Shown here piece by piece: positions 18,874 through 63,801 of a DNA stretch of 64,000 bases. The stretch comes from Candidatus Aldehydirespirator sp. (GTDB lineage Bacteria > Actinomycetota > Acidimicrobiia > Acidimicrobiales > Aldehydirespiratoraceae). Position 1 is the stretch's first letter. Every line of letters starts with the position of its first letter. Both the position numbers and the translations under genes were made by a program. The stretch covers positions 104,992-168,991 of the forward strand of contig OZ242020.1 in assembly GCA_965204875.1 (NCBI GenBank). The letters run 5' to 3'. The notes under the pieces were generated by a model. That model did no database searches, had not been told where the DNA came from, and saw only the letters and a program-made list of their open reading frames with translations.

Positions 18874-21513
18874 TTAGCCGGAGGGTTCGCTGAAGTTGAT
18901 GATGCCGACTGTGGCGGGTGTCTGGTCCCGGTCATCATCGGCGCCGGGGGCGTTGTCCCGCAAGCGGATCAGGAACAGGACACTGCTCTTGTCGCCCGTC
19001 TCAGTCTCGTCGGTGTCGTTCATCCAGGTTGAGAAGGTGAGACTGCCGTCCGCGCCGGTGTGGCGGGTGTGGCGGTACTGGTCCCAGTTGGGAGAAGACT
19101 GGACGGCTGAGGGCCAAACTTGGAAATCGTTTGACCCCCCCTCCCTCTTAACCCTGTTCGCGTGTTTCTTGCCGGGTTCGGGGAAGTAGATGCGTTGGAG
19201 CTCAAACGTGGCGCGGCTGGTGCCGTCGGCGCCGGCTGTGGTGTCAGAGTTGCCTGCTCTGAGTTGCACCGTGATGGCCACTTCGTCACCGTAATCGGCC
19301 TCAACGGGGGCGTTCTTGTTCTTTTTTGTGTCATCCCCCTTCTTGAACGACTTCTGCAGATCCGCGCCCTCCGACTTCACGGTGATGCTGTCAGCAGCCG
19401 TTCCAGAGGGAACGGTCACGGTCGGCGCGGACCCAGAAGTGATGCGGTCGCCCTCTGACACATGCACGTAGAACACATGCAACCGCTTGTTGTCCAGCAC
19501 CTTCCTGGTGTCCAGGTTGATGATCGCCGTAGAGGCCGGACCGTTGAACTCCTCGAGCACGCGGATCACGATCGTCTTCTTATCACCGGCAGTGCTCGGG
19601 TTCGGGTCCGCCGGCGCAGTGACAGGGAACGAGACCATGCCCGTACCGTCGGTCTTCAGCGTATATTCAGCATCGATATCATAATCACTAACGGTCTCGC
19701 ATTCAGCATCACCACATTGAGGATCGAGTCGGGTATAGCCGATGTACTCGGTGACCTCATGCATCTTATTCCGACGGGGACTATAACGCATCGCGGTAGC
19801 ATGTCCATCCACATCAAATTGCCAGGAATGCAGATTGACAGGGCTGGCACCGTCGACACCGAACGCGGCGCGCTTCAGCTTGTCACCGTCGTTCTCGTCG
19901 GTGTGCAACAACTGCACCGTGAACTGCGACCAATCACCGAACTTCATCTCAAAATAATGGGCACTCTCGCTGTCCGTAGCCTTCGTGTCCGCAACCTTGT
20001 CATCATCAGCCGTAATACGCAACGACTCCGCCGCCACCTGACTCAACGGCAAAGTCGTGGTCGTGGTAGTCGTAGTGGTCGTAGTCGTGGTAGTCGTAGT
20101 CGTCGTCGTGGTAGTCGTAGTCGTCGTGGTAGCCGGGGTGGTAGTCGTAGTCGTAGTAGTCGTGGTAGCCGGGGTGGTAGTCGTAGTAGTGGTAGCCGGG
20201 GTGGTAGTCGTGGCAGTCGTAGTAGTTGTCGCGACCGGGGCCGAACCACCACCGCCACCGCCTGCAGGGGCGGCGGGAACAACCGCGGCCGCGGCCGGCA
20301 CCGTGACAGCATCAGGATCACCGGCGATGCGCAACTCGAAACCATTCACCTCGCCGTTGTAACGGGTGCCGCGGTCGCCGGTCCAGACCCACACCGTCAC
20401 ACCCCGACCAATGGTCGACGCGCTCAACTCGTCCAGTTTGACATCGCCGTCGGCGCCGGTCACCGGGTCACGCGCATCGATCGCGCACGCCGTGGAGGTG
20501 CGGTTAACGCTGCGCACGAGAGCGTTGCACCCGCCCCGCAGATCAAACGCCCGATAGCGGCGCTGCGAACTCACATAGAACCCATCCACCGGCGCCCCCG
20601 ACACCGGCCTGAACGTCGCGTCGCGCACCGACACCACCACCACACCACCGTCGGCCTGCGCCGTCACACCCGCCGGACGCACCCCCGTGTGCGCCAGCGT
20701 GCGCTTGATGAACGACGCCATATTTTTGCGCGGCACCGGACCCTCAGGATCAAACCTCCTCGCATCCCCGGCGCTGCCCGTCGTGATACCAAGCTCATAG
20801 GCGTAACTCGCCGCAACACGCGCATCCCCCGCAGGCACATCTGCGAAATGATCCAGCGTCCCACCCGAACCCAGGATCAGCTCACCCGCCATCGCGCCGT
20901 CCTGATGGAACAGGCCGGGGCTGGCATGGCGCAGGAACCCGATCAGAGCCACCGCCATCTCGGCCCGCGTGATGCTCGCATCGGGCCTGAACGCCATCCC
21001 CGAGCCGGCCAAAATGTCGTTGCGAGCCAGCGCCAGGATCGCGTTGCGGCGCTCCTCGTCGAGATCGGCGACATCGTTGAAGTCGGCGGCGCCCGAGCCG
21101 CCTGTCAGATCCACCCCGGCGACCCCAGCAGCCCTGTGCAAGAACAACGCCATCTGCGAACGCGACACCTCAGACCCGGCATCGAACCGCTCGGCCGTCC
21201 TGCCCCTGGTGATCCCGTAATACGCGATGCAGTTGATCGCATCCTCAGCAACCAACCCCTCGACATCCACAAACCCAGCATCCTCCGACGCGTCACCAAA
21301 ACACGCAGAAAACACCGGCAACGCATCAGCCTCCGCGCGGTCGTCCCCCACAGGCGCAGCCCCGACCGGCGCAGCCACCACAACCCCACCAACCAGACCA
21401 GCCACCAACAACACACACCACAACAAACCACCACCACGACACCGGCGGCGGCGGCCGGCTACAACATCAGCAGCCCCCCCCCCCCGGGGCGAAGTACGAA
21501 CCATCAGAGACAT
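18874..21513 (-). CDS. SLH-domain surface (S-layer-like) protein with poly-Thr linker, paralog 1
   Basis: The conserved start MSLMV lies behind GGAGAGG. It is followed by an Arg-rich n-region and a hydrophobic signal, then three SLH-like repeats (FVDVEGLVAEDAINCIAYYGITRG..F.., FNDVADLDEERRNAILALARNDILAG..FRPDASITRAEMAV, and others). A poly-Thr/Pro/Ala linker of about 60 aa, a variable middle and a conserved C-terminus complete the protein. Confidence 0.8.
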   Translation of the reverse strand: MSLMVRTSPRGGGAADVVAGRRRRCRGGGLLWCVLLVAGLVGGVVVAAPVGAAPVGDDRAEADALPVFSACFGDASEDAGFVDVEGLVAEDAINCIAYYGITRGRTAERFDAGSEVSRSQMALFLHRAAGVAGVDLTGGSGAADFNDVADLDEERRNAILALARNDILAGSGMAFRPDASITRAEMAVALIGFLRHASPGLFHQDGAMAGELILGSGGTLDHFADVPAGDARVAASYAYELGITTGSAGDARRFDPEGPVPRKNMASFIKRTLAHTGVRPAGVTAQADGGVVVVSVRDATFRPVSGAPVDGFYVSSQRRYRAFDLRGGCNALVRSVNRTSTACAIDARDPVTGADGDVKLDELSASTIGRGVTVWVWTGDRGTRYNGEVNGFELRIAGDPDAVTVPAAAAVVPAAPAGGGGGGSAPVATTTTTATTTTPATTTTTTTPATTTTTTTTTTPATTTTTTTTTTTTTTTTTTTTTTTTTTLPLSQVAAESLRITADDDKVADTKATDSESAHYFEMKFGDWSQFTVQLLHTDENDGDKLKRAAFGVDGASPVNLHSWQFDVDGHATAMRYSPRRNKMHEVTEYIGYTRLDPQCGDAECETVSDYDIDAEYTLKTDGTGMVSFPVTAPADPNPSTAGDKKTIVIRVLEEFNGPASTAIINLDTRKVLDNKRLHVFYVHVSEGDRITSGSAPTVTVPSGTAADSITVKSEGADLQKSFKKGDDTKKNKNAPVEADYGDEVAITVQLRAGNSDTTAGADGTSRATFELQRIYFPEPGKKHANRVKREGGSNDFQVWPSAVQSSPNWDQYRHTRHTGADGSLTFSTWMNDTDETETGDKSSVLFLIRLRDNAPGADDDRDQTPATVGIINFSEPSG

Positions 21514-51095: not shown

Positions 51096-52028
51096 CTAGC
51101 AGCCAGGTCTATTGCTTCGGTGGCGCAAATTGCATTTGTTGGCCGGAGGAATCGGACCTCCAGTATACGGTTTCCGATCAGCGTTCAGCTTATCTCTGTG
51201 CCTCCATGCCTCCCGCACGTAGTGCGGACCCGCGGTGACTGCCGTGGTTACCGCTGCAGTACAAGGGATGCTGGAGGCACATCGAAGCGCGGCATATTTC
51301 ACCACGACAAACACTGCAACCCAGAAGGGGTCAGCCACCACAGGGTAACTCGCACCGCGATGATCCACCGTTTGAACAATCACCCGGCCGTTAATTTCAA
51401 AATGAGTCAGCACATCTTTGCCGTCCGCGTCTACAGCCCAGGGTGCCATAATCCCGCCGGCTTCCTTGCCGAAGTCGTCATAGAACCTCACCGAGCCGTC
51501 GTTTTGAATCTTGGCGCTATACCCTGCAGGCACGGCACGTTCAAACCGATACTTCGTTGAGGCATCGGAATTGTCGATGATCAACGCGGCCATGAACACT
51601 GAAGCGTCATCGGCCGCGTGAGTCCACAATTCAACGTTCTCGTCGTCTTCGAGGGCTACAACGGCATCAGGAACACCCCGATCCGTCCACACCGTGTCGA
51701 ACTCGGCCGCGCCTGTGTTAGCAACCGGTCCCGGAGCTGTGGTCTCGACATCGCGATTGATGTCTGAGGCGCTGCCGCCACCCACACCGGCATTCGCGGC
51801 TGGGACTGAATCGTCGTCGCTAGCGTCGGCGACACCCGCAGGAGCTTCGAGCGGCGTCTGCGCCTGAGCGGGCAGCGCAACTGTCAGCGCTAGGACAGCA
51901 ACCGCGCACACCGCGGCACACGAAAGTCGGACTCTGCGCCTCACGGCAGTACCTCCTGATTGACCTGTGCGACCTCGGCTGCGGGGCTGCACGCTGGTAG
52001 CTATACCCGAGATCAAGCGCTGTGTCAA
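51096..52028 (-). CDS. Hypothetical secreted protein (lower-GC patch)
   Basis: Signal peptide (LSCAAVCAVAVLALTVALPAQAQ) followed by an acidic linker. No recognisable domain. Confidence 0.5.
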   Translation of the reverse strand: MTQRLISGIATSVQPRSRGRTGQSGGTAVRRRVRLSCAAVCAVAVLALTVALPAQAQTPLEAPAGVADASDDDSVPAANAGVGGGSASDINRDVETTAPGPVANTGAAEFDTVWTDRGVPDAVVALEDDENVELWTHAADDASVFMAALIIDNSDASTKYRFERAVPAGYSAKIQNDGSVRFYDDFGKEAGGIMAPWAVDADGKDVLTHFEINGRVIVQTVDHRGASYPVVADPFWVAVFVVVKYAALRCASSIPCTAAVTTAVTAGPHYVREAWRHRDKLNADRKPYTGGPIPPANKCNLRHRSNRPGC

Positions 52029-52053: not shown

Positions 52054-53796
52054 TCAGAAGCGCAGCTTGGACGGGTAGGGGTAGAGGTCGGGGAAGTCTC
52101 CGCTGCGGTTGCGCTGCTGCATCGACTGCCAGAACCCGACCGTGGCGATCTCGGGGTATTGCTCTGCGAACACCTCTCCGAGCACCGCAGGCGAGCGCAG
52201 GAAGGTGGCGAACTCCTCGGGGAACACGTCGTCGGCGCCCACCGGGAACCACGGCTGATCGAGCATCTCGTCGGCGTCGGCACCGGGGGCGGGCAGCCCG
52301 CGGAAGTTCACCTCCGACAGCAGGGCCAGCTCGTCATAGTCATAGAACACGACCGCGCCGAGCCGGGTCACGCCGAAGTTCTTGGCGAACAGGTCGCCGG
52401 GGAAGATGTTGGCCGCGGCCAGGTCCTTGATGGCGTTGCCGTAGTCGACGGCGGCCGCCCGCACCCGGTCGGGCGCCATCTCCCGCAAGTACAGGTCCAG
52501 CGGGTAGACGCGCCGCTCGGTGTACACATGGCCGAGCACCACCTCGTCGCCGCTGACGGTCACCGTGCGCGAGCAGTCCCGCTGCAGTTCCTCGAGGAGG
52601 TCGTGGTCGAAGCGGTCGCGGGAGAAGGTCAGGTTCTCGAACTCCTGCGCGTCCACCAGCCTGCCCATCCGGTCGTAGCCGAACACCAGCTGGTAGCGCC
52701 TCTTGACCTCCTCGGGGGTGATCCTCTTGCTGGGCGGGAAGCGGTCCTTGATGACCTTGAACACCACGTCGAACGAGGGCAGCGCGAACACCGCCATGAC
52801 GGTGCCGGCGGCGCCGCGCGAGTGCTCGAAGCGGGTGTTGGAGTGCTCCATGTGCCGGTACAGGGCCCGGAAAAGGTTGGTCTTGCCGTGCTGGGAGTAC
52901 CCGAGGGCGGTGTAGAGCTCGGCGACCGGCTTCACCGGCAGCATCGACTTGAGGAAGGCCACGACGGCGGCGGGGCGCGTCGTGAGGGCGTGCATGTAGG
53001 AGCGGGCGTAGCTGAACAGGCGGCTGGCGGCGGACTCGGTCAGCAGCGCCGCATCGACGCGCACGCCCGTGCCGTCGTGCACGACGGGCAGGATGCACGG
53101 CGACACCCGGTTGAGCCAGCGCAGCCGGCCGACCAGGTAGGCACCCTTCTGTCGGTAGAAGACGGGTTCGAGCACGTCGATGGCGTCGAGTCCCCGCCAA
53201 GTGCCCGCAAGCTGCGCGTCGATCCGCTCGGCCACCAGGCGGGCGTCTCGGTCCAGGTCGGCGAAGTGCGGCCCCAGCGGGCTGCGTCGCAGGACAGCCC
53301 GCACCGCAGCCTCCGTAGAGCTCGCAGCCCCCGCGGGCGCGGCGACAGCGGCGGTGCGGTAGTCGCCCGCGGCGGGGTCGTCGGCAGGCAGCGCCGTGGG
53401 GCCGAGCCAGATGAACTCCAGATCCCGGTCGAGGCCGACTACATCGAAGAGGCGCCGGGTGACGGAGTTGTAGAACGTCTCGGCCAGCTCCGTGTCGCCG
53501 CGCGGCGCCACGAGTTCCACGTAGCGCCGCTGGGCCTCGATCCAGCTGCCCCGCGGATCGCAGGCTGGAACCCGGTCGCGGCAGGTCTCGACGGTCTCGA
53601 GCACGGCGGCGGTGTGCAGCTCGAGACGCTCGGCCGCGTCCTGGCGGTGGCCGTGCCAGTCCCGTGCGAGGAAGCGCTCCCCGGCACGGCCGGTGATGGC
53701 GATGAAGCGGCGGTGGAAGTCCTCGAAGCGCCGGTAGAGGATGTTCGCCAGCTCCTCCGGCGTGCCCGGGCGGCCCGGTCGGCTTCGCGGGCCCAC
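52054..53796 (-). CDS. aceK: Isocitrate dehydrogenase kinase/phosphatase
   Basis: Strong collinear similarity to E. coli AceK as I recall it: FDVVFKVIKDRF, AQEFENL, AAANIFPGDLFAKNFGVTR, VVFYDYDE and VNFR segments. Confidence 0.85.
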   Translation of the reverse strand: MGPRSRPGRPGTPEELANILYRRFEDFHRRFIAITGRAGERFLARDWHGHRQDAAERLELHTAAVLETVETCRDRVPACDPRGSWIEAQRRYVELVAPRGDTELAETFYNSVTRRLFDVVGLDRDLEFIWLGPTALPADDPAAGDYRTAAVAAPAGAASSTEAAVRAVLRRSPLGPHFADLDRDARLVAERIDAQLAGTWRGLDAIDVLEPVFYRQKGAYLVGRLRWLNRVSPCILPVVHDGTGVRVDAALLTESAASRLFSYARSYMHALTTRPAAVVAFLKSMLPVKPVAELYTALGYSQHGKTNLFRALYRHMEHSNTRFEHSRGAAGTVMAVFALPSFDVVFKVIKDRFPPSKRITPEEVKRRYQLVFGYDRMGRLVDAQEFENLTFSRDRFDHDLLEELQRDCSRTVTVSGDEVVLGHVYTERRVYPLDLYLREMAPDRVRAAAVDYGNAIKDLAAANIFPGDLFAKNFGVTRLGAVVFYDYDELALLSEVNFRGLPAPGADADEMLDQPWFPVGADDVFPEEFATFLRSPAVLGEVFAEQYPEIATVGFWQSMQQRNRSGDFPDLYPYPSKLRF

Positions 53797-53808: not shown

Positions 53809-54120
53809 TCAGTCCTCGGCAGCGCCTGCGTCGTTGCGAGCGAGGTCGTGGTGGCGGATCACCTCGTCGATCACGAACCGCAGGAACTTCTCGCTGAAGG
53901 CGGGGTCGAGGTTGGCCGCTGCGGCCAGTTCCCGCATCCTGGCGACCTGCTGCGACTCGCGCTCGGGATCAGCGGGCGGCAGCCCGGCGCTTGCCTTGTA
54001 CGCGCCGATCTGCTTGGTGACCTTGAAGCGCTCGGCAAGCAGCAGTACCAGAGCAGCGTCAATGTTGTCGATGCTCGACCGGTAACCGGCCAACAATTCG
54101 TCACCCGGTCCCGAGTCCAC
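53809..54120 (-). CDS. Chorismate mutase (AroQ class)
   Basis: RSSIDNIDAALVLLLAERFKVTKQIGAYK...PEREQ-like pattern of small AroQ mutases. The start codon is GTG. Confidence 0.8.
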   Translation of the reverse strand: MDSGPGDELLAGYRSSIDNIDAALVLLLAERFKVTKQIGAYKASAGLPPADPERESQQVARMRELAAAANLDPAFSEKFLRFVIDEVIRHHDLARNDAGAAED

Positions 54121-54131
54121 GACCCGAAACG

Positions 54132-55655
54132 CTACCGCCGTCGAGTTCTTTCGGCAATGAGGTGCTCGATGGCCTCGTCTCGGGCCCAGGCAAGATCTAC
54201 GAGATCGTCAATCGAGGCAACCAATAGCTCGCCTCGACCCTCGATTTCTGTGCGAAGAACATCGAGCGGAACCCGCCTATCGCTCTTTGTGCCATTATGA
54301 TACGGGCAGAGCGGTGCACGATTGTCTATTTCGTGTCGTCCCTGCTTCGACCTGGGATCGATATGATCTAGCACGAAATTATTGATAGTGTGTTGGATCA
54401 ACATCTCGCCGTTCACGTCCTGTTTCCAGTTGGCAAATCCACAGCACCAGGCACGCCAATCCGAAAGACCCAACAGAAACTCAAGCATCTCCGAGCGTGA
54501 GAATATGCTAGCACGGGTCTTGTACTTGCGAGGTGGCAATGGCTTTACCGACTTCACATCGTCTTCCAATGTCGAGCGAACAGGTAGTTCGTGCGGTCCA
54601 CGCATAGTGACATCCGCGCGCGCCAGTGAGGCCCCCGCGTGAGCCAACACGCCCTCAGGTGCTTCACCATCAACGGCGTAACCGAACTTCTTGAACTGCC
54701 GCCTAAGCACAGTCATCGCACGCGGAGATATGTCACAAGCCACCCACTGACGGCCTAACCTTTCCGCAGCTACCGGAACATAGGCACATCCAGCGAAAGG
54801 GTCCATCACCAGATCGCCGGGCATGCTAGATGCTCGGACGATAAGTTCGGCCAAGGCTACCGGCTTCTGGGTCGGATATCCAGTGCGCTCTTTCGCCTGA
54901 TTGTTGAGTGATGGTATGTTCCACACATCGGTCATGCCCTTCTGTTTTCCACTAAGCCTACGTGACGAGGCCGGTTGCGTCGGCTTGGAGAAGGGGAAGA
55001 CATCGGACTTTGTGTAAAATAGTAAGGTATCATGCTTGCGTGACCATCGCTTCGGAGATGATCCACCCAATCCGTATGACCAAACGATCTCGTTCTGAAA
55101 ATTCTCCTCGCCAAATGTCGCATCTAGCAACATTCTCAGATAACTGTTGGCGGCATGATCACAATGCAAGTAGATTGACCCTGAAGGCTTCAGAATACGA
55201 TGGCATTCGATGAGTCGTACAGCCATGTATGCTAGATAAGCAGCGGCACTCTCAGAATGTGTCTTTCGAGTAGCTTGTATCGCACTGTTCACTGCTGAAT
55301 GCCGATCTTCAATATCGTTCATCCATTCCTCGTGGATGTCAGCTGACCACGACCATATATCCTGAAACCTCGCTGTCGTGTCACCCGACGGCCACACGAT
55401 GCTCGCCTTATCCGCATCATTCACACCGTGAATGCCCCATGATGCAAGAACATCTGACTCCATCTGAGTCTCCTCGGCAGTCAGTGGAGGCCTGAGCTTG
55501 CCGACGAACGTGTCGTTCTTCGCGAATGGAGGATCGGTGCAGATGAGGTCGACGCAAGCCGTATCCAGCGACTTGAGCAAATGGCAGTTGTCAACAATGA
55601 ACAGATGCCGGTTGAGAGAGTGTGCCTGTGTCGTGCTGCTCACGTCGCTGGCCAT
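54132..55655 (-). CDS. Beta-class N4/N6 DNA methyltransferase fused to a C-terminal HNH nuclease domain
   Basis: Motif IV TDPPF comes before motif I DPFAGCAY...AAERLGR, which is the beta-class order. The C-terminal DHIDPRSKQGRHEIDNRAPLCPYHNGTKSD forms the HNH domain. GC is about 50% by eye. Confidence 0.75.
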   Translation of the reverse strand: MASDVSSTTQAHSLNRHLFIVDNCHLLKSLDTACVDLICTDPPFAKNDTFVGKLRPPLTAEETQMESDVLASWGIHGVNDADKASIVWPSGDTTARFQDIWSWSADIHEEWMNDIEDRHSAVNSAIQATRKTHSESAAAYLAYMAVRLIECHRILKPSGSIYLHCDHAANSYLRMLLDATFGEENFQNEIVWSYGLGGSSPKRWSRKHDTLLFYTKSDVFPFSKPTQPASSRRLSGKQKGMTDVWNIPSLNNQAKERTGYPTQKPVALAELIVRASSMPGDLVMDPFAGCAYVPVAAERLGRQWVACDISPRAMTVLRRQFKKFGYAVDGEAPEGVLAHAGASLARADVTMRGPHELPVRSTLEDDVKSVKPLPPRKYKTRASIFSRSEMLEFLLGLSDWRAWCCGFANWKQDVNGEMLIQHTINNFVLDHIDPRSKQGRHEIDNRAPLCPYHNGTKSDRRVPLDVLRTEIEGRGELLVASIDDLVDLAWARDEAIEHLIAERTRRR

Positions 55656-55751
55656 CTTCTCAGTACCTTCCTTTCGGAGGGATCGCGTAGGCTACAAGCG
55701 AGCACAGGCGCCGCAGCGCGCACCACAAGTTGAGGGGCGCTTGTCCAGTGG

Positions 55752-55826
55752 TGGGCCGTAGGGGATTTGAACCTCTGACCTCCTGCGTGTCGAGCAGGCG
55801 CTCTAACCAGGCTGAGCTAACGGCCC
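55752..55826 (-). tRNA. tRNA-Val (anticodon GAC) with non-canonical features
   Basis: The reverse complement GGGCCGTTAGCTCAGCCTGGTTAGAGCG-CCTGC-TCGACAC-GCAGG-AGGTC-AGAGGTTCAAATCCCCT-ACGGCCCA folds as a cloverleaf. Position 33 reads C and the T-stem has one A.C mismatch. Confidence 0.7.
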
Positions 55827-56015: not shown

Positions 56016-57398
56016 GTGCCGGTGGGCGAGATGGTGGCGAGTGAGGCGTGGCTGCCCTCAGCGGGCGGGCTGCAACGGCGGCGCTATCACGGCTACCTGC
56101 CCGACCCGCTGAGCGACTGGGCCCCCGAGCCGGACGCCGCGTTGCAGGCTGCGATCGATGCCGCCGATCAGCACTGCGCCCGGATCGGCCGCATGGGAGG
56201 CGCACCGCTGGGGGTTGCCGTGGCGTCCTGGGTGGTCGCACGCGACGAGAGCATCCAGTCGAGCATCATCGAAGGCATCCGCACATCGAGGGATGCCCTC
56301 GCCTGGGCGCAGTACCGAGAGCGCACCGGTCAGCCGATATTCGACGCGAACAGCGCGCTGACGCTGGGCGCGGGGCGGCAACTCGAGGCCGCCCGCGAGT
56401 TGGGCGAGCGCATGAGAGAGGGCGAGGCCTGCCGCGTGGAGGACTTGCGTGCGCTGCACGCGGCCCTCTGCGAGAACACCCCTGATCGCCACATTGCCGG
56501 AGTCGTGCGGCATGAGCCCATCTGGATAGGCCCTCCCAACTGCCGGATCGAAGATGCTGCCTTCGTGGCGCCGCCGCCCTCGTATGTGCCCGATCTGCTG
56601 GAGGACTTGACGCATTACATCAACTCGGCACGTCACTCTCCGGCGTTTCAAGCCGCCGCCGCTCACGCACAGTTCGAGGCGATCCACCCGTTCGAGGACG
56701 GCAACGGCAGAACCGGCAGGGCACTCATCCACGCGGTGCTCATAGCCCGAGGAGTGGTGAACGGCGCAGTGCCCATCAGTTCCACGCTCGAACGCGAGCG
56801 CCGTGAATATTATGCGGCGCTCAACGAGTCGCATGTGCTGTGCGCGCCCGGCGACTCGCGGGCACGCCTGTCCGGATTGAGCAGATGGCTGCTGCTGTTC
56901 CGGGACGCCGCCGCCGAAGCCGAGGAGCACGTTCGGCATGCTCTCGAATCTGCCGAGGCGTTAATCTCCCAATGGCGCAATAGGGCGCGTCTGAGAGCGG
57001 GGAGCGGCGCGACCGCGCTCCTAGAGGCGCTGCCGTCAATGCCGATCTTGACGGCTGACATGGCTGCCCGAAGATTGGGCATGAGTCCCAAGTCCGCACG
57101 CACCGCGATACGCACGCTGACACGGGCAGGCATTCTCAAGCCGATCGGCGGCAAGCGCAACGGGCGCTACACGGTGCCCGACGTCATCGAGTTGATCCCG
57201 ACCACTACGCCGGAAGGGGGCGCGGTGGCGGCCAACTACAGCACCGCGGCAGCCGCAGCGTCATCGCTGTTGGACGCCTTGCCACCCAACGCCGCCGCCA
57301 GGCAGCATATCGTGTGCGCGTACCTGGGCCCGCGCTCCAAGAAGCCCTGCCTGCTGCCCAAAGGCCACGGCGGTCAGCACCGCTACACAACCCGGTGA
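56016..57398 (+). CDS. Fic family protein
   Basis: Fic motif HPFEDGNGRTGRAL and a C-terminal wHTH-like region. The start is uncertain. Confidence 0.85.
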   Translation: MPVGEMVASEAWLPSAGGLQRRRYHGYLPDPLSDWAPEPDAALQAAIDAADQHCARIGRMGGAPLGVAVASWVVARDESIQSSIIEGIRTSRDALAWAQYRERTGQPIFDANSALTLGAGRQLEAARELGERMREGEACRVEDLRALHAALCENTPDRHIAGVVRHEPIWIGPPNCRIEDAAFVAPPPSYVPDLLEDLTHYINSARHSPAFQAAAAHAQFEAIHPFEDGNGRTGRALIHAVLIARGVVNGAVPISSTLERERREYYAALNESHVLCAPGDSRARLSGLSRWLLLFRDAAAEAEEHVRHALESAEALISQWRNRARLRAGSGATALLEALPSMPILTADMAARRLGMSPKSARTAIRTLTRAGILKPIGGKRNGRYTVPDVIELIPTTTPEGGAVAANYSTAAAAASSLLDALPPNAAARQHIVCAYLGPRSKKPCLLPKGHGGQHRYTTR

Positions 57399-57808: not shown

Positions 57809-57944
57809 GGGGTTCCAAGCGTACCGGCGACACCGGCGCCTGCCGCGGCCTCCGGCGGTCGCAGCGGACTCCTTCAGTTCGCAGCAATGACGGTGTACGT
57901 TGTTGGGTTATCGCCGCGGCCTCCGGCGGTCGCAGCGGACTCCG

Positions 57945-58577
57945 TCAGCGCCGGCGGGAGCGGGCGGCCACCGCTGCGGTCACCGACGCCGCCCCCGCCG
58001 AGTGCAGGCACCTCGCGACCGCACGCAACGTTGCGCCGGTGAGCATCACGTCGTCCACAAGCACTATGTGGCGGTCCGCAACCGGCTCCAGCGCCATGTA
58101 ACCCAACCCTGCGGCAACCTCGTCGTGCGCCTCGGGCTCGACGTCTTGCATCTTGGGCGAATCGCGCCGGCGGCCGAGGAGGCCGGGGCGCCACTCCCCC
58201 GCCCCGGCTGCCGCCAACGCTCGCGCCAGATGCGAAGCCACGGTCGCAGCGCGCCCCCTCGTTGCCGCGTGATCGACCTGGGTGAGTGGCGCATAGGCGT
58301 CATCGGATGCCCGACCGGGCCGCGACACCAGGGTCGGATCGCCCTGCCCCGTGGCCGATGGCGGCCCCGAGGGCACGCCCGTGACCAGGTTCGGCGGGCC
58401 GCCCGATGGCACGGGGATCCGGGCCGCCAGGCCCGCGAAGCGAACGGCGAGCCGGGCCGCCGCCGCCGGGTCGTCCAAGTCCCGGGCCCTGTGCACCAGC
58501 AGGCCGACCTCGGTGCGGACATTGCCGGCGGGTCTCCAGTAGTCGTCGAGCACATGCAGGCTCTCGACGCCTCGCAT
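57945..58577 (-). CDS. ComF-family phosphoribosyltransferase-like protein
   Basis: C-terminal PRTase motif HIVLVDDVMLTGATL. The listed start at 58622 overlaps tRNA-Gly, so an internal start (ATG at 58577 or later) is more likely. Confidence 0.6.
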   Translation of the reverse strand: MRGVESLHVLDDYWRPAGNVRTEVGLLVHRARDLDDPAAAARLAVRFAGLAARIPVPSGGPPNLVTGVPSGPPSATGQGDPTLVSRPGRASDDAYAPLTQVDHAATRGRAATVASHLARALAAAGAGEWRPGLLGRRRDSPKMQDVEPEAHDEVAAGLGYMALEPVADRHIVLVDDVMLTGATLRAVARCLHSAGAASVTAAVAARSRRR

Positions 58578-58759: not shown

Positions 58760-59770
58760 CTAGTGGCGGTCGCCGGGCGCGGCGGGCGACCCGGGCGCAT
58801 CGCGCACGCTGACCGCCGCGGCGCGCAAGGACCCGGCCACTGCATCGGCATCAGCGAGCTCCGCCTCCTGATCGGCACTGATCGGCAGCAGCCTCTCCAG
58901 CGGGGAGCGCGCCTCCGCGGACGCGTGCGCCAGCAGTTCGGCGGCGGCTGCTAGGTGGTCTGCGGCATTCTGATCGTTGGTCTGTTCCGTCATCTCCTGA
59001 GTGGAAGACGCATATCCGGCAAAGCGCCAGTTTGTGAACGCCCCCTTGGAATCGCGCGGCAGGGCACCGAGGGCAGCAGACACCGCCGCGTGAACATCCT
59101 GCTCGTCAACGAGCGCATCAAGCATCTTCTCTATCTTGTGATCGCGGTCGAGGACGCGCCCCTTGCGCAGGCGTCCTATCGCGTTCAGCGATGACTCGAG
59201 GCAAAAGTGGGAGTCTTCCAACATGTTCAGCAGCGCCCACGACCCGGGACGATCTTCGCTAGTCGAACTATGGCTGAAGGCAGCGTCACAGGCCGAAGAT
59301 CCTTTGCGCGCGCCCTGCATAATTTCGTTGATGGCGAGCTGCCTATCGTTGCGTGCCATAGTCCACGCCGCTCCTTCCCGCTCCGCGATATCGCCGTCAA
59401 TCTCTGAATGTCCGCTCAGGGTGCGCCCGTGGCGGACGGCCTCGCTGTAAACGGACGAGCGTGCATATCGGGTGCTCCAGGCAAGCTGCCGCGGCGTCAC
59501 CGGCATAGCGTCACAGTCGAAACCGGTGACGCCATGCGCCCGGTCTTGCAACTCGCCCTGCAGCGCCTCGAACTCCGACTCCGAGCAGTCCGGCGTGTCC
59601 ACGACCACCAGCAGGTCGATGTCGGAGCGCTCCGTCGCCGCGTTCTTGGCGACCGAACCGAACAGCACAACCGCCTCGATCTCAGGATGCGCATCCCGAA
59701 GAGCCTCCGCGGCGCGCTGAGCATCAGCAGCAGTAGGAATGGAGGCAGCCGAGTTGCCGGGAGTGCCCAT
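58760..59770 (-). CDS. Fused nucleotidyltransferase (MNT-type) and HEPN-like protein, paralog A
   Basis: N-terminal LFGSVAKNAATERSDIDLLVVV (the GS...DxD NTase motif). The C-terminal half carries GRLRKGRVLDRDHK, which fits the HEPN Rx4-6H motif. Confidence 0.6.
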   Translation of the reverse strand: MGTPGNSAASIPTAADAQRAAEALRDAHPEIEAVVLFGSVAKNAATERSDIDLLVVVDTPDCSESEFEALQGELQDRAHGVTGFDCDAMPVTPRQLAWSTRYARSSVYSEAVRHGRTLSGHSEIDGDIAEREGAAWTMARNDRQLAINEIMQGARKGSSACDAAFSHSSTSEDRPGSWALLNMLEDSHFCLESSLNAIGRLRKGRVLDRDHKIEKMLDALVDEQDVHAAVSAALGALPRDSKGAFTNWRFAGYASSTQEMTEQTNDQNAADHLAAAAELLAHASAEARSPLERLLPISADQEAELADADAVAGSLRAAAVSVRDAPGSPAAPGDRH

Positions 59771-59952: not shown

Positions 59953-62355
59953 TTAGCCGGTGGGTTCGCTGAGTCTCACGATGCCGCTTGTGACCGGGGT
60001 GGTGCCGAGGTCGTTGGTGGCGTCGGGGGCGTTGGTGCTCGAGCGGATCAGGAACACAACGCTGCCCGAGTGGCCCGAGGTGCCGGTGTCGGGGTCGTCC
60101 ATCCAGGTTGAGAAGGTGAGGCTGCCGTCAGCGCCGGTGTAACGGGTCCGCCGGTACTGGTCCCAACCGCTGGACGCCTCGGCAGACCGCGGCATAATCA
60201 CAATATCGCGCGCTCCCGCCCTTTCAATCGAGTTCGCGTGACCGCCTGTCGGGAAGTAGAGACGTTGGATATTGAACGCAGCGCGGCTCGTGCCATCCAC
60301 ACCGACGGTGGTGTCACCGTCAGCGTCCTGGAGTTGCACCGTGATCGACACCTCATCACCATAATCGGCCGCCACGAACGTCGAGCTTGTGGTCCCGGAC
60401 GTGAACGACTTGTCAGTCTTGGCACCGTTGGACATCACGGTAATCTTGGTAGCCGCGTCGCCGGCGGGCACGGTCGTGGTCACCGCGGACCCAGAAGTCG
60501 TGCGCGCACCCTCCGACACATGCACAATGACCACATGCATCCGCTTGTTCGGAACAGCAGTGATCGCAGACGATGCCGGACCGTTGATCTCCTCCACAAG
60601 ATGAACTACCAGCGTGCGCCTGTCACCCGCAGTGCCCGGGGTCGGATCCGCCGGCGCCATAACAGCGAACGAAGCCATACCCGTGCTATCGGTCTTCAGA
60701 GTATGCTGAGCAACGGTAGCATCGTTTCGAGTGGAATTGAGATAGTCGTTAGCAACAACCTTCGGCGTAGCACTACTGAACTGAGAAGGGTTCTTTAGGT
60801 GAGTATCGATGTCGACCTGCCGAACATCAATCAACACAGGGTTCGTGCCGTCCACACCGAACGCGGCGCGCTTCACCTTGTCACCATCATTCTCGTCGGT
60901 GTACAACAACTGCACCGTGAACTGCGACCAGTCACCGAACTTCATCTGGTAATAGTCACCGCCACCACTAAAGGTGGCCTTGGTAGCCGCAACCTTCTCA
61001 TCATCAGGCGTGATACTCAACGACTCGGCCGCCACCTGACCCAACGGCATAGTAGTCGTAGTCGTCGTAGTGGTCGTAGTAGGCGTAGTCGTCGTCGTCG
61101 TCGTGGTCGTCGTGGCGGAACCGCCGCCGCCGCCTGCTGGGGCGGCGGGAACGACCGCGGTCGCGGCCGGCACCGTGACAGCGTCAGGATCACCGGCGAT
61201 GCGCAACTCGAACCCGTCCACACTGCTGTCGTTGTAAGAATCGCCCCGGTCGCCGGACCAGACCCACACCGTCACACCACGACCGATGGTCGCGGCGGCC
61301 AGCTCGTCCAGCTTCACATCACCATCGGCGCCGGTGACCGGATCACGCGCGTCGACCGCGCACGCCGTCGAGGTGCGATTCACGCTCCGCACGAGCGCGT
61401 TGCACCCGCCCCGCAGATCAAACGCCCGATAGCGGCGCTGCGTGCTCACATAGAACCCGTCAACCGGCGCACCAGCCACCGGCATGAACATTGCGTCGCG
61501 CACCGACACCACCACCGTGTTGCCATCGGCCTGCGCGGTCACGCCAGCGGGGCGCACACCCGTGTGCGCCAACCAGCGCGACACGAACGATGCCAGGTTC
61601 TTGCGCAGCACACGACCCTCAGGATCAAACTTGCTCCCATCGCTGGCGCTGCCCGTCGTCAACCCCAACTCGAACCCATAACTCGCCGCCGTGCCCACAC
61701 GTCCCGAACGCGCGTCGCTGAAATGATCCAGGCTGCCCTCGCCGAGCTTCAACGCGCCCGACGCGTCGAACAGGCCCGGGCTCGCCAACCGCAACAACCC
61801 CACAAGCGCCGCCACCGTCTCAGCACGCGTCACCGGCACACCGGACATGGCACCGTCACCCGAGAGCACACCGGCGGCGGCCAACGCCGCCACAGCACGC
61901 CGGGTCTCATTGTCCATCGCGGCGTCGCCATCCATCCCGGCGTCATCTTCGGCGTCACCGAACTCAACCCCCGCGAGCACCGCCGCCCGATACAACACCA
62001 ACGCCAACTCCGCACGCGACACCACCGCACCGGCACCGAACCGGTCCTCAGACGCGCTCACGGCGACCCCGTAATACGCCAGACAGTTCACCGCGTCCTC
62101 AGCGCCGATACCCGCAACATCCACAAACCCCGCATCCCCCAACGCGTCACCAAAACACGCAGAAAACACCGGCAACACATCAGCCTCCGCGCCGCTGCCG
62201 CCCACAGGCGCGGCCCCAGCAGGAGCCGCTGCCACAACCCCACCAACCAAACCAACCACCAACAACACACACCACAACAAACCACCACCACCACCACGGC
62301 GGCGGCCGGCTACAACATCAGCCAGCCCCCCCCCCGCGGCGAGAACCACTACCAA
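59953..62355 (-). CDS. SLH-domain surface protein with a shorter poly-Thr linker, paralog 3; the conserved start is apparently out of frame
   Basis: The architecture matches paralogs 1 and 2. The ORF track starts this ORF at a TTG (MVVVLAAGGG...). The conserved RBS and ATG-TCT-CTG-ATG lie a few nt upstream in a different frame. Confidence 0.7.
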   Translation of the reverse strand: MVVVLAAGGGLADVVAGRRRGGGGGLLWCVLLVVGLVGGVVAAAPAGAAPVGGSGAEADVLPVFSACFGDALGDAGFVDVAGIGAEDAVNCLAYYGVAVSASEDRFGAGAVVSRAELALVLYRAAVLAGVEFGDAEDDAGMDGDAAMDNETRRAVAALAAAGVLSGDGAMSGVPVTRAETVAALVGLLRLASPGLFDASGALKLGEGSLDHFSDARSGRVGTAASYGFELGLTTGSASDGSKFDPEGRVLRKNLASFVSRWLAHTGVRPAGVTAQADGNTVVVSVRDAMFMPVAGAPVDGFYVSTQRRYRAFDLRGGCNALVRSVNRTSTACAVDARDPVTGADGDVKLDELAAATIGRGVTVWVWSGDRGDSYNDSSVDGFELRIAGDPDAVTVPAATAVVPAAPAGGGGGSATTTTTTTTTTPTTTTTTTTTTMPLGQVAAESLSITPDDEKVAATKATFSGGGDYYQMKFGDWSQFTVQLLYTDENDGDKVKRAAFGVDGTNPVLIDVRQVDIDTHLKNPSQFSSATPKVVANDYLNSTRNDATVAQHTLKTDSTGMASFAVMAPADPTPGTAGDRRTLVVHLVEEINGPASSAITAVPNKRMHVVIVHVSEGARTTSGSAVTTTVPAGDAATKITVMSNGAKTDKSFTSGTTSSTFVAADYGDEVSITVQLQDADGDTTVGVDGTSRAAFNIQRLYFPTGGHANSIERAGARDIVIMPRSAEASSGWDQYRRTRYTGADGSLTFSTWMDDPDTGTSGHSGSVVFLIRSSTNAPDATNDLGTTPVTSGIVRLSEPTG

Positions 62356-62790: not shown

Positions 62791-63801
62791 CTAGTGGCGG
62801 TCGCCGGGCGCTGCGGGCGAACCGGGCGCATCGCGCACGCTGACCGCCGCAGCGCGCAAGGACTCGGCCACTGCATCGGCATCAGCGAGCTCCTCCTCCT
62901 GATCGGCGCTGATCGGCGGCAGCCTCTCCAGCGAGCCGCGCGCCTCTGCTGCCGCGTATCTCAAGAGTGCCGCCGCAGCTTCCAGATGAGCCGCAGCGTT
63001 CTCCTCGGTTGTCTCAGCCATCAGCTTCGGGGTTGCCCCAGCGTAGAGCGCGAGCCGCCACCTCGTGAACTCGCCCTTGTCGTCGCGCGGCAGGTCGCTG
63101 AGCGCCACGGAGGCTGCCGCATACGCATCGACTTCTTCGGCTAGCTCCTCCAGCATGATCTCAATCCGATGATCGCGGTCAAGGATGCGCCCCATACGCA
63201 GGCGTCCTACCGCGTTCAGGCAGGCTTCGGCACAAGCATGGGAGCTTTCCAACGCGTCCTGCAGTGTCCGCAGTCGCTTGCCGGCACCGCTAGAAATCAG
63301 CAACTCTCGCGCTGCTCGGTCCGCCGACTCCGCCTTCCTTGCAGCCTGCATAATTTCGTTGATGGCGAGCTGCCTATCGTTGCGTGCCATAGCCCATGCT
63401 GCCCCTTCCCGCTCAGCGATATCGCTGTCAATCTCTGAATGTCCGCTCAGGGTGCGCCCGTGGCGGACGGCCTCGCTGTAAACCGACGAGCGCGCATATC
63501 GGGTACTCCAGGCAAGCTGCCGCGGCGTCACCGGCATAGCGTCACAGTCGAAACCGGTGACGCTATGCACCCGGTCTTGCAACTCGCCCTGCAGCGCCTC
63601 GAACTCCGACTCCGAGCAGTCCGGCGTGTCCACGACCACCAGCAGGTCGATGTCGGAGCGCTCCGTCGCCGCGTTCTTGGCGACCGAGCCGAACAGCACA
63701 ACCGCCTCGATCTCAGGATGCGCATCCCGAAGAGCCTCCGCAGCACGTTGAGCATCAGCAGCAGTAGGAATGGAGGCAGTGGAGTTGCTAGGAGTGCTCA
63801 T
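62791..63801 (-). CDS. Fused nucleotidyltransferase (MNT-type) and HEPN-like protein, paralog B
   Basis: It has the same length (336 aa) as paralog A. The first ~135 and last ~45 residues are nearly identical to paralog A, the middle has diverged, and RMGRILDRDHR is conserved. Confidence 0.6.
   Translation of the reverse strand: MSTPSNSTASIPTAADAQRAAEALRDAHPEIEAVVLFGSVAKNAATERSDIDLLVVVDTPDCSESEFEALQGELQDRVHSVTGFDCDAMPVTPRQLAWSTRYARSSVYSEAVRHGRTLSGHSEIDSDIAEREGAAWAMARNDRQLAINEIMQAARKAESADRAARELLISSGAGKRLRTLQDALESSHACAEACLNAVGRLRMGRILDRDHRIEIMLEELAEEVDAYAAASVALSDLPRDDKGEFTRWRLALYAGATPKLMAETTEENAAAHLEAAAALLRYAAAEARGSLERLPPISADQEEELADADAVAESLRAAAVSVRDAPGSPAAPGDRH

What the first reader, a model, noticed from the sequence alone, without database searches (positions are those of the whole stretch)
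54132..55655. Low-GC single-polypeptide DNA methyltransferase-HNH nuclease fusion wedged between a tRNA and chorismate mutase
The 507-aa product has beta-class amino-methyltransferase motifs: TDPPF, followed by DPFAGCAY...AAERLGR. It also has a C-terminal HNH domain (DHIDP...H-x-IDN...CPYHN). GC is about 20 points below the flanks. The gene begins about 100 nt from the 3' end of tRNA-Val(GAC) and stops 11 nt before the GTG of the chorismate mutase gene. This indicates a precise horizontal insertion. A methyltransferase fused to HNH could act as a one-protein restriction-modification or anti-phage module. It could also be a phage-derived, self-protecting homing nuclease.
Basis: partly seen in the sequence, partly recalled or inferred. 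Interest (0 to 1): 0.55.

Follow-up and report, generated by a model that had tools for sequence, protein, structure and literature searches.

The report
One-protein DNA methylase–nuclease, mobile family
The gene encodes an intact DNA methyltransferase fused to an HNH nuclease, most likely a one-protein restriction-modification module, and it belongs to a large uncharacterised family that swaps its DNA-recognition segment and sometimes rides inside IS1595 transposons in symbiont genomes.

Summary
A 507-aa ORF (54132-55655, minus strand) carries a beta-class N6/N4 DNA methyltransferase domain and a C-terminal HNH domain with all catalytic residues. It starts 93 nt after tRNA-Val(GAC) and stops 11 nt before chorismate mutase. 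Its GC is 0.53 against 0.69 for the window.

It is one member of a large family found mainly in sponge, coral and termite symbiont MAGs. Three comparative results point to a "methylate self, cut unmethylated DNA" enzyme:
- The scaffold and nuclease are conserved, but the target-recognition segment is hypervariable. Tandem arrays hold 3-4 genes that are 96-100% identical outside it and 13-32% identical inside it.
- In some members a T5orf172 (GIY-YIG-like) nuclease domain replaces HNH at the same position.
- No partner gene is conserved next to it.

In 11 of 80 related loci the gene is cargo of an IS1595-family transposon. The repeat pair was seen in nine, and two have 8-bp target duplications. 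The window copy has no transposase, repeats or integrase. It lies in a variable region beside a SoFic-like Fic gene. One relative shares it (79% identity) and five others lack it. I found no phage origin and no homing site. Activity and specificity are untested.

The parts
54132..55655 (-). Complete gene for the 507-aa methyltransferase-HNH fusion protein
   Evidence: ORF. Pfam N6_N4_Mtase plus HNH. Full-length homologues at 72-79% identity. dN 0.14 against the L001 copy with synonymous sites saturated, which indicates purifying selection.
54711..55553 (-). Beta-class amino-methyltransferase domain (residues 35-315), with motif IV before motif I
   Evidence: Pfam E 8.8e-41. PDB sequence hits to M.BceJIV, M.RsrI and CcrM. 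Foldseek best matches are the same enzymes.
55524..55535 (-). Catalytic motif IV, D41-P-P-F44
   Evidence: Read directly from the sequence. Present in 78 of 78 family members that include this region.
55254..55517 (-). Family-specific helical, tryptophan-rich insertion between motif IV and motifs V/VI (approximately residues 47-134)
   Evidence: Conserved W73, W88, W101, W103 and W111 in alignment A1. Helices 60-72, 78-83 and 103-132 in the model. Its role is unknown.
54891..55079 (-). Target-recognition segment (approximately residues 193-255). This copy has the shortest variant in the family.
   Evidence: Mean pairwise identity is 0.18 here, against 0.41-0.58 for the flanking methyltransferase parts. 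It is 13-32% identical between tandem paralogues that are otherwise 96-100% identical. pLDDT is low at 228-241.
54711..54890 (-). Motif X (ERTGYPTQKP), motif I variant (DPFAGCAY) and motif II acidic residue D308
   Evidence: F287, G289, C290 and D308 are invariant in 82 of 82 members. Alignment to the AdoMet-binding region of M.BceJIV.
54471..54665 (-). Linker between methyltransferase and nuclease (residues 331-395), partly conserved
   Evidence: Alignment A1. Low-confidence stretches at 365-381 in the model.
54261..54470 (-). HNH (beta-beta-alpha-metal) nuclease domain, residues 396-465. Contains D430-H431, N445 and N454, with C405, C450 and H453 as probable zinc ligands.
   Evidence: Pfam HNH above its cut-off. 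Catalytic residues are invariant in A1 and present in 69-71 of 82 broader family members; the remainder lack H431 and include the T5orf172-bearing members. The model shows strand 428-431, strand 446-449 and helix 451-457 at pLDDT of about 90.
55656..55748 (-). 93-nt spacer between the tRNA-Val 3' end and the ATG. It contains GGAAGG 9-14 nt upstream of the start.
   Evidence: Sequence. No sigma-70-like promoter was found. It does not align with the corresponding spacer of L001.
55749..55826 (-). tRNA-Val(GAC), the upstream neighbour
   Evidence: ARAGORN. 94% identical to the L001 copy.
53809..54120 (-). Chorismate mutase (AroQ), the downstream neighbour on the same strand, 11 nt after the stop. 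AceK follows at 52054-53796.
   Evidence: Pfam and NCBIfam.
56016..57398 (+). Fic-domain protein resembling the SoFic defence protein. It is the second variable gene of this small island.
   Evidence: Pfam Fic 1.9e-20. PADLOC SoFic 1.1e-58 over nearly the whole profile. Present in L001 at a different position and only 53% identical.

Best explanation
The gene encodes a stand-alone, single-chain enzyme that most likely acts as a self-contained restriction-modification module. The N-terminal two thirds form a beta-class, probably N6-adenine, DNA methyltransferase. Its short variable segment between motif VIII and motif X reads a specific DNA sequence. A linker of about 65 residues then leads to an HNH nuclease. 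Shown here: both domains are present, their catalytic residues are intact and under purifying selection, the recognition segment alone is hypervariable, the nuclease module is exchangeable, and the gene needs no conserved neighbour. Inferred: the methyltransferase marks the host's own sites with AdoMet, while unmethylated sites on incoming DNA are cut by the tethered HNH. Because one recognition segment would serve both activities, swapping it would change both together, as in Type IIG enzymes. One HNH site makes one nick, so double-strand cleavage would need two molecules or two sites. The family spreads horizontally, partly as cargo of IS1595-type transposons, where such a module would also stabilise its carrier. 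The window copy is a transposase-less member. It was acquired by horizontal transfer into a variable, defence-rich junction between a tRNA cluster and the chorismate mutase-AceK operon.
For: Domains and motifs. DPPF is present in 78/78 members, F-x-G-C-A and D308 in 82/82, and D430/H431/N445/N454 are invariant in subfamily alignment A1. Purifying selection: dN 0.14 with saturated synonymous sites against the L001 copy. Specificity diversification: the recognition segment has 0.18 mean identity against 0.41-0.58 for the scaffold. Tandem arrays L080, L048, L036 and L025 hold 3-4 genes that are 96-100% identical outside it and 13-32% inside it. Nuclease exchange: of 73 members, 55 have HNH and 9 have T5orf172/MUG113 at the same C-terminal position. 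In L055 the HNH is a separate ORF overlapping the methyltransferase stop by 4 nt. Autonomy: the only recurrent neighbour is the IS1595 transposase (11/80 loci), and other neighbours are unrelated. The linker+HNH module is specific to this architecture. It has only 80 representatives among 1.84 billion proteins, and where the listed protein is long (about 375-610 aa) it lies at the C-terminus; the shorter hits look like fragments. Mobility: 25-33 nt terminal inverted repeats bracket transposase plus methylase-nuclease, with 8-bp target duplications in L010 and L031. Horizontal origin of the window copy: GC 0.533 and GC3 0.575 against 0.69 and 0.83-0.93, and absence from five relatives. Defence context: a SoFic-like gene lies 361 nt away, and relatives carry McrBC at the equivalent junction. 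Viral relatives are almost all methyltransferase-only, which fits the nuclease being the host-side weapon.
Against: No enzymatic or genetic data exist for any member, and I found no paper on this architecture. Motif I is F-A-G-C-A rather than the usual F-x-G-x-G, so AdoMet binding is inferred, not shown. Nothing here shows that cleavage is blocked by methylation. All REBASE Type IIG enzymes are reported to have the other (class A, gamma-like) methyltransferase type (10.1101/2023.12.13.571470), so there is no precedent for this design. PADLOC recognises only the methyltransferase part. The recognition sequence is unknown, so site avoidance could not be tested. The overall model is only moderately confident (pLDDT 74.5), and the domain arrangement is not reliable.
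Confidence: 0.55

Rival explanations
1. It is a selfish mobility or gene-conversion device rather than a defence enzyme. The methyltransferase part serves mainly as a sequence-specific DNA-binding module. The HNH or GIY-YIG domain nicks nearby to promote spread of the gene or exchange of its recognition cassette, as in a homing endonuclease, and methylation limits self-damage.
For: HNH and T5orf172/GIY-YIG are the nuclease types typical of homing endonucleases, and they are interchangeable here. There are many copies per genome and tandem arrays with cassette-like recognition segments. The gene is consistently GC-poorer than its hosts.
Against: Loci share no common insertion site or interrupted host gene. 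The documented mobility is by a DDE transposase with target duplications, not by homing. Beta-class recognition segments normally read 4-6 bp (established knowledge), which is far too frequent for a homing site. The subfamily is absent from phage collections.
Confidence: 0.15
2. It is an accessory protein of IS1595-type transposons, for example for target choice, target immunity or post-segregational killing of cells that lose the element. The window copy is a relic left after the transposase and the element ends were lost.
For: The transposase lies directly upstream on the same strand in 11 of 80 loci. Inverted repeats enclose both genes, and 8-bp duplications flank the unit in two loci. Transporter IS are known in the IS1595 family (10.1101/2021.05.26.445724).
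Against: About 85% of the loci, including the closest relatives and the window, have no transposase or repeats. The window gene is intact and under purifying selection without them. Tandem arrays with different recognition segments are hard to explain by a transposition role. Post-segregational killing would be the same biochemistry as the best explanation, not a true alternative.
Confidence: 0.1
3. It is an orphan, regulatory or anti-restriction methyltransferase. Its HNH tail would be non-catalytic (a structural or DNA-clamping zinc module) or would act on something other than unmethylated target DNA. This includes the variant in which the methyltransferase fold is a reader and the enzyme cuts modified DNA.
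For: Phage and plasmid relatives of the scaffold are methyltransferase-only. Motif I deviates from the consensus. The Pfam HNH score of this copy is modest (26 bits).
Against: The general-base His, both Asn residues and the Cys/His ligands are invariant in the subfamily and present in essentially all HNH-bearing members. Replacement of HNH by another nuclease fold argues that nuclease activity is what is selected. The invariant DPPF and D308 argue for an active methyltransferase rather than a reader. Hypervariable recognition segments in arrays are not expected for a regulatory methylase.
Confidence: 0.12

Closest known systems
Type IIG / IIC single-polypeptide restriction-modification enzymes (MmeI, BpuSI, Tth111II)
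   Same: Nuclease and methyltransferase lie in one chain and no partner gene is needed. One recognition module presumably serves both activities, so swapping it would re-programme both. The cassette-like recognition segments seen here fit that logic.
   Different: The known enzymes have an N-terminal PD-(D/E)XK nuclease, a gamma-type (class A) methyltransferase and a C-terminal recognition domain (established knowledge). REBASE Type IIG enzymes are reported to be exclusively class A. This protein has a beta-class (class B) methyltransferase with an internal recognition segment and a C-terminal HNH. Its activity is untested.
Stand-alone beta-class m6A methyltransferases (M.BceJIV, M.RsrI, CcrM, M.MboIIA)
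   Same: They share the fold, the motif order (IV ... X, I-III) and DPP[YF] catalysis. They are the best sequence and structure matches.
   Different: They have no nuclease domain. This family adds an insertion of about 85 residues after motif IV, an F-x-G-C-A motif I, a linker and an HNH. Identity is only 17-25%.
HNH Type II restriction endonucleases (KpnI, Hpy99I, MnlI, PacI)
   Same: They use the same beta-beta-alpha-metal catalytic module with a structural zinc site and a presumed single metal ion (PMC4081073).
   Different: They are separate proteins with their own DNA recognition, paired with a separate methyltransferase gene. No significant sequence match to any solved HNH was found (best was IscB, E 0.84).
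Transporter insertion sequences (tIS) of the IS1595 family
   Same: In 11 related loci a DDE_Tnp_IS1595 transposase and the methylase-nuclease gene lie together. Where I checked, they lie between terminal inverted repeats, and the expected 8-bp target duplication is present in L010 and L031.
   Different: I found no report of a methylase-nuclease passenger in this IS family. The window copy has no transposase or repeats.
Free-standing HNH / GIY-YIG homing endonucleases of phages
   Same: They use the same nuclease folds and are modular fusions of a nuclease to a DNA-binding part.
   Different: Those enzymes recognise long sites, sit in phage genomes, introns or inteins, and carry no methyltransferase. 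This family is absent from cultured phages as a fusion and has no common target locus.

Membership tests
Beta-class N6/N4 amino-DNA-methyltransferases (Pfam PF01555) | Significant match to the family profile | tested here: met
   140.7 bits against a cut-off of 26.7, E 8.8e-41, covering profile positions 1-217 of 221.
Beta-class N6/N4 amino-DNA-methyltransferases (Pfam PF01555) | Permuted motif order: catalytic (D/S)PP(Y/F) near the N-terminus, AdoMet motif I (FxGxG) near the C-terminus, recognition segment between them | tested here: met
   DPPF lies at 41-44 and motif I at 287-291, with the variable segment at 193-255. Motif I reads F-A-G-C-A, so the second Gly is Ala. This is invariant in the family.
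Beta-class N6/N4 amino-DNA-methyltransferases (Pfam PF01555) | Fold similarity to solved members | tested here: met
   Foldseek probability 1.00 and target TM 0.59-0.66 to M.BceJIV, M.RsrI and M.MboIIA.
Beta-class N6/N4 amino-DNA-methyltransferases (Pfam PF01555) | Methyl transfer to DNA, and the base modified (m6A or m4C) | not testable with these tools
   DPPF rather than SPPY favours adenine, from established knowledge of these motifs, but this is only a lead.
HNH / beta-beta-alpha-metal nucleases (Pfam PF01844) | Profile match above the curated threshold | tested here: met
   26 bits against 21.4, E 1e-5, residues 425-460. Relatives reach E 6e-14.
HNH / beta-beta-alpha-metal nucleases (Pfam PF01844) | General-base His at the end of strand 1, structural Asn, and metal-binding Asn/His on the helix | tested here: met
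D430-H431, N445 and N454 are invariant in A1. The model places them on strand 428-431, before strand 446-449 and on helix 451-457.
HNH / beta-beta-alpha-metal nucleases (Pfam PF01844) | Metal-dependent DNA cleavage | not testable with these tools
   Needs purified protein.
Type IIG / IIC restriction-modification enzymes | Nuclease and methyltransferase domains in one polypeptide | tested here: met
Type IIG / IIC restriction-modification enzymes | Architecture of characterised members: N-terminal PD-(D/E)XK, gamma/class A methyltransferase, C-terminal recognition domain | tested here: not met
   This protein has a class B (beta) methyltransferase with a C-terminal HNH. Type IIG is reported as exclusively class A. 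It is therefore not a member of the MmeI-like family, although it may work like one.
Type IIG / IIC restriction-modification enzymes | Cleavage of unmethylated sites and protection by its own methylation | not testable with these tools
   No experimental data are available.
IS1595-family transporter IS (passenger gene) | Adjacent DDE_Tnp_IS1595 transposase, terminal inverted repeats enclosing both genes, 8-bp target duplication | tested here: not met
   These features are met in relatives: 11 loci have the transposase, the GGGAATTATATAC-type repeat pair was seen in nine (L010, L016, L021, L031, L055, L060, L076, L078, L079), and L010 and L031 have target duplications. In the window there is no transposase, and the only repeat-motif hits are 3-mismatch matches at 19181, 49385 and 60251, far from the gene.
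tRNA-targeted genomic island | Integrase gene and a direct repeat of the tRNA 3' end at the far border | tested here: not met
   No integrase lies between 53.8 and 58.7 kb. No repeat of the tRNA-Val 3' end was found.
Homing endonuclease genes | Residence in a phage, intron or intein, or at one conserved target locus | tested here: not met
   Neighbours are diverse and unrelated, and tRNA adjacency is rare. There is no full-length phage relative.

The most novel reading that the evidence does not exclude
This is a previously uncharacterised class of one-protein restriction-modification enzymes: a beta-class methyltransferase plus a C-terminal HNH or GIY-YIG-like nuclease. Its specificity would be re-programmed by exchanging a short internal recognition cassette, as seen in tandem arrays of near-identical genes. 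It also spreads as the cargo of IS1595 transposons, giving transposable restriction-modification units that are especially abundant in sponge and other symbiont genomes.
Probability: 0.45. Interest if true: 0.7.

Novelty: new variant of a known kind. Interest (0 to 1): 0.5.

Why it matters
If the protein methylates and cuts through one shared recognition segment, it defines a new architecture of single-chain restriction-modification enzyme. All described Type IIG enzymes use the other methyltransferase class and a PD-(D/E)XK nuclease. The arrays of genes that differ only in a cassette of about 60-200 residues would form a natural library of specificities. That would be useful for finding or engineering new sequence-specific nucleases, nickases and methylases. 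Carriage inside IS1595 elements would be a compact example of a defence or addiction module moving by transposition. It may also help explain why DNA methylase and HNH domains are reported as enriched in sponge microbiomes (PMC12284385, citing earlier surveys). For this genome, it marks the tRNA-Gly/Cys/Val to chorismate mutase junction as a small defence island. It also shows that the public gene call is truncated and loses the catalytic motif.

Tried and rejected
- **Integration scars.** I looked for direct repeats of the tRNA-Val 3' end, inverted repeats and the IS1595 repeat motif around the gene. None were found.
- **Empty site.** I looked for tRNA-Val directly followed by chorismate mutase in relatives found through AceK homologues. 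Five relatives were examined (L082-L086). All have a different left neighbour of chorismate mutase and no tRNA, so neither an empty site nor clade-wide conservation could be shown.
- **Source genome.** Looking up the window's own proteins (P0001, P0121) to identify the genome failed: no gene with exactly these products is on record and no names are held.
- **Phage origin.** Rejected.
- **Plasmid origin.** Only methyltransferase-domain matches of 39.7% identity or less were found.
- **General tRNA association.** Rejected. In 48 loci only L004 has a tRNA close upstream on the same strand.
- **Conserved partner gene** (a separate nuclease, controller protein or helicase). None was found by clustering all neighbouring ORFs of 81 loci.
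- **Functional link to the Fic gene.** Fic does not recur at other loci, so this is island co-location only.
- **HNH against solved structures.** No significant sequence match.
- **Dating the acquisition by dS.** Synonymous sites between the window and L001 copies are saturated, and the strong GC3 difference makes comparison with housekeeping genes unreliable.
- **Second copy in the window.** None.
Full report
**1. The observation**

The minus-strand ORF 54132-55655 encodes 507 aa. Pfam finds a DNA methylase domain (PF01555, residues 35-315, E 8.8e-41). It also finds an HNH domain (PF01844, residues 425-460, 26 bits against a cut-off of 21.4).

tRNA-Val(GAC) lies at 55749-55826 on the same strand, 93 nt upstream of the ATG. 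The stop codon lies 11 nt before the GTG of a 103-aa chorismate mutase. AceK follows that gene.

Gene GC is 0.533 and GC3 is 0.575. The rest of the window has GC 0.692, and the neighbouring housekeeping genes have GC3 of 0.83-0.93.

The public gene call for this protein (P0001, 443 aa) starts at an internal Met and omits the catalytic DPPF motif. Homologues align from residue 1, so 507 aa is the correct length.

**2. Anatomy of the protein**

The methyltransferase is beta-class.
- Motif IV (D41-P-P-F44) comes first.
- An insertion of about 85 residues follows. It is helical, tryptophan-rich and specific to this family.
- Motifs V-VIII come next, then a short variable segment (about residues 193-255).
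- Motif X (ERTGYPTQKP) and motif I (DPFAGCAY) follow, with the motif II acidic residue D308.

The best sequence and fold matches are the m6A methyltransferases M.BceJIV, M.RsrI, CcrM and M.MboIIA. DPPF is present in 78 of 78 relatives that include the region. F-x-G-C-A and D308 are present in 82 of 82. Motif I has Ala in place of the second Gly, and this is a fixed signature of the family.

A linker of about 65 residues leads to the HNH domain. D430-H431, N445 and N454 are invariant in the subfamily, and C405, C450 and H453 are likely zinc ligands. An AlphaFold2 model (mean pLDDT 74.5, about 90 over the HNH part) places these residues on a canonical beta-beta-alpha unit: strand 428-431, strand 446-449 and helix 451-457.

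Against the 79%-identical copy in a related genome, dN is 0.14 while synonymous sites are saturated. The gene is under purifying selection.

**3. The family**

The protein search returned 7,675 proteins at E ≤ 0.001, most through the methyltransferase domain. The top hits are full-length fusions. A scan of species-representative genomes gave at least 595 loci. Nearly all are MAGs of sponge, coral or termite symbionts: Dehalococcoidia, Acidimicrobiales, Poribacteria, Latescibacterota, Spongiisociaceae and others. Several copies per genome are common.

Four properties bear on function.

- **Only the recognition segment is hypervariable.** Mean pairwise identity is 0.18 there, against 0.41 for the N-terminal part and 0.58 for the C-terminal methyltransferase part. 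The tandem arrays L080 (4 genes), L048 (3), L036 (3) and L025 (4) contain genes that are 96-100% identical in scaffold and nuclease but 13-32% identical in that segment.
- **The nuclease is modular.** Of 73 members scanned, 55 carry HNH. Nine carry a T5orf172/MUG113 (GIY-YIG-like) domain at the same C-terminal position. In L055 the HNH is a separate ORF that overlaps the methyltransferase stop by 4 nt.
- **The linker+HNH module is essentially private to this architecture.** It has 80 representatives among 1.84 billion proteins. Where the listed protein is long (about 375-610 aa) the module lies at the C-terminus; the shorter hits look like fragments.
- **No partner gene is conserved.** I clustered all neighbouring ORFs of 81 loci. 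The only recurrent neighbour is an IS1595-family transposase.

**4. Mobility**

In 11 of 80 loci a DDE_Tnp_IS1595 / Zn_ribbon_IS1595 transposase lies directly upstream on the same strand. Terminal inverted repeats of 25-33 nt, starting GGGAATTATATAC, enclose transposase plus methylase-nuclease as one unit of about 3 kb. I saw this repeat pair in nine of the eleven loci. L010 (TTTCGATG) and L031 (TTTCTTTG) have perfect 8-bp target duplications. Both the HNH and the T5orf172 versions occur as such cargo.

These elements are transporter IS, a form described for the IS1595 and IS66 families (10.1101/2021.05.26.445724). I found no report of this passenger.

Family genes average 3.4 GC points below their flanks, and much more in high-GC hosts. 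This fits frequent transfer.

As a fusion the family is absent from 50,697 phage records and 72,556 plasmids. The subfamily is absent from IMG/VR. Viral relatives of the scaffold are almost all methyltransferase-only.

**5. The window locus**

The window copy has no transposase, no inverted repeats, no integrase and no repeat of the tRNA end.

One related genome (L001) has housekeeping proteins 75-90% identical to the window's. It has the same tRNA-Val / methylase-HNH / chorismate mutase arrangement. Its copy is 79% identical and also low in GC: 0.51 in a locus whose flanking DNA is 0.60 GC. A Fic gene is present in both genomes, but it sits at a different position and is only 53% identical.

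Five other relatives, with AceK 77-84% identical, keep chorismate mutase-AceK and citrate synthase; four of them also keep the alcohol dehydrogenase gene, which L086 lacks. Upstream of chorismate mutase they carry other variable genes: DUF222-HNH, McrBC or small ORFs. They have no tRNA there.

The junction is therefore a variable, defence-rich spot. The Fic protein matches the SoFic defence model at E 1.1e-58. I conclude the following:
- The gene is foreign by composition.
- It is not clade-wide.
- "Precise insertion at the tRNA" is not demonstrated.
- tRNA adjacency is not a family trait.

**6. Mechanism**

The data fit best a self-contained "methylate self, cut unmethylated DNA" enzyme.

Shown:
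- Two intact catalytic domains under selection.
- Diversification confined to the recognition segment.
- An exchangeable nuclease module.
- Genetic autonomy.
- Residence in defence-type and mobile contexts.

Inferred:
- AdoMet-dependent N6-adenine methylation of a short site.
- HNH cleavage near unmethylated sites, with two molecules needed for a double-strand break.
- Coupled re-programming of both activities by cassette exchange.
- A stabilising (addictive) effect on carrier elements.

I put this at 0.55. The rivals are listed here and argued in the structured fields.
- A selfish homing or gene-conversion device: 0.15.
- A transposon accessory protein with the window copy as a relic: 0.10.
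- An orphan or reader methyltransferase with a non-restriction HNH: 0.12.

**7. Comparison with known systems**

Functionally the closest are the Type IIG/IIC single-chain enzymes. This protein is not a member of that family, because those combine an N-terminal PD-(D/E)XK nuclease with a gamma/class A methyltransferase. A REBASE-based survey reports Type IIG as exclusively class A.

The protein is a member of the beta-class methyltransferase superfamily and of the HNH superfamily. The 2014 Type II review lists HNH restriction enzymes only as separate proteins. My literature searches found no description of a beta-methyltransferase-HNH fusion.

I rate it a new variant of a known kind, of moderate interest. 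The window gene itself is one ordinary, transposase-less member. The family-level features are the more notable finding: cassette arrays, nuclease swapping and IS1595 carriage.

Noticed in passing
window 54132-55655 (-), public protein P0001: The public gene call for this ORF is 443 aa. It starts at an internal Met (residue 65) and so lacks the catalytic DPPF motif. Homologues show that the 507-aa start is correct.
   Followed up: yes
window 56016-57398 (+): A Fic-domain protein matches the SoFic anti-phage model (E 1.1e-58). It sits between tRNA-Cys and tRNA-Val, splitting the tRNA-Gly/Cys/Val cluster. In the relative L001 the Fic gene lies on the other side of the methylase-HNH gene and is only 53% identical, so the block order differs between the two genomes.
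   Followed up: partly
window 51096-52028 (-): A 310-aa ORF has a signal-peptide-like N-terminus, no Pfam match and low GC (0.60; GC3 0.60). It lies between AceK and the alcohol dehydrogenase gene. It is absent from L001, which has a 607-aa HNH-domain protein at that spot. This is a second variable slot in the same neighbourhood.
   Followed up: partly
window 58760-59770 (-) and 62791-63801 (-): Two paralogous 336-aa nucleotidyltransferase (Pol-beta fold) genes are 77% identical overall. Their first ~150 and last ~40 residues are nearly identical and the middle is divergent. They flank an 800-aa ORF with a weak SLH-domain hit (59953-62355) that includes a GC dip at about 60200-61000.
   Followed up: partly
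L080 6442-12362; L048 5922-9638; L036 27-3738; L025 12-4753: Tandem arrays of 3-4 methylase-nuclease genes have near-identical scaffolds and unrelated recognition segments. This looks like a specificity cassette library.
   Followed up: partly
L010 6885-9861; L021 6886-9753; L031 6852-9878 (also L016, L055, L060, L076, L078, L079): IS1595-family transposons of about 3 kb carry the methylase-HNH gene, or in L056, L078 and L079 a methylase-T5orf172 gene, as a passenger between GGGAATTATATAC-type inverted repeats. 8-bp target duplications are present in L010 and L031 but not in L021.
   Followed up: yes
L055 7962-8918 and 8915-9337: Inside an IS1595 element the methyltransferase and the HNH domain are separate ORFs overlapping by 4 nt. 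This is either a genuine two-gene version or a frameshift or assembly error.
   Followed up: no
L082 6134-7588; L083 3560-7423; L084 4366-7430; L085 5977-7578: In related genomes the slot upstream of chorismate mutase holds a DUF222-HNH protein, preceded by McrBC genes in L083 and L084 (the McrB ORF in L084 is a 99-aa fragment). L001 also has a DUF222-HNH gene about 10 kb away.
   Followed up: no
window 57842-57877 and 57913-57948: A 36-nt direct repeat (97% identical, 71 nt apart) lies between tRNA-Cys and the ComF-like phosphoribosyltransferase gene.
   Followed up: no
L004 10002-14927 (-): Next to a 65%-identical family member lies a 1641-aa DEAD/Helicase_C protein with an MZB (MrfA zinc-binding) domain. 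This may be another defence gene.
   Followed up: no
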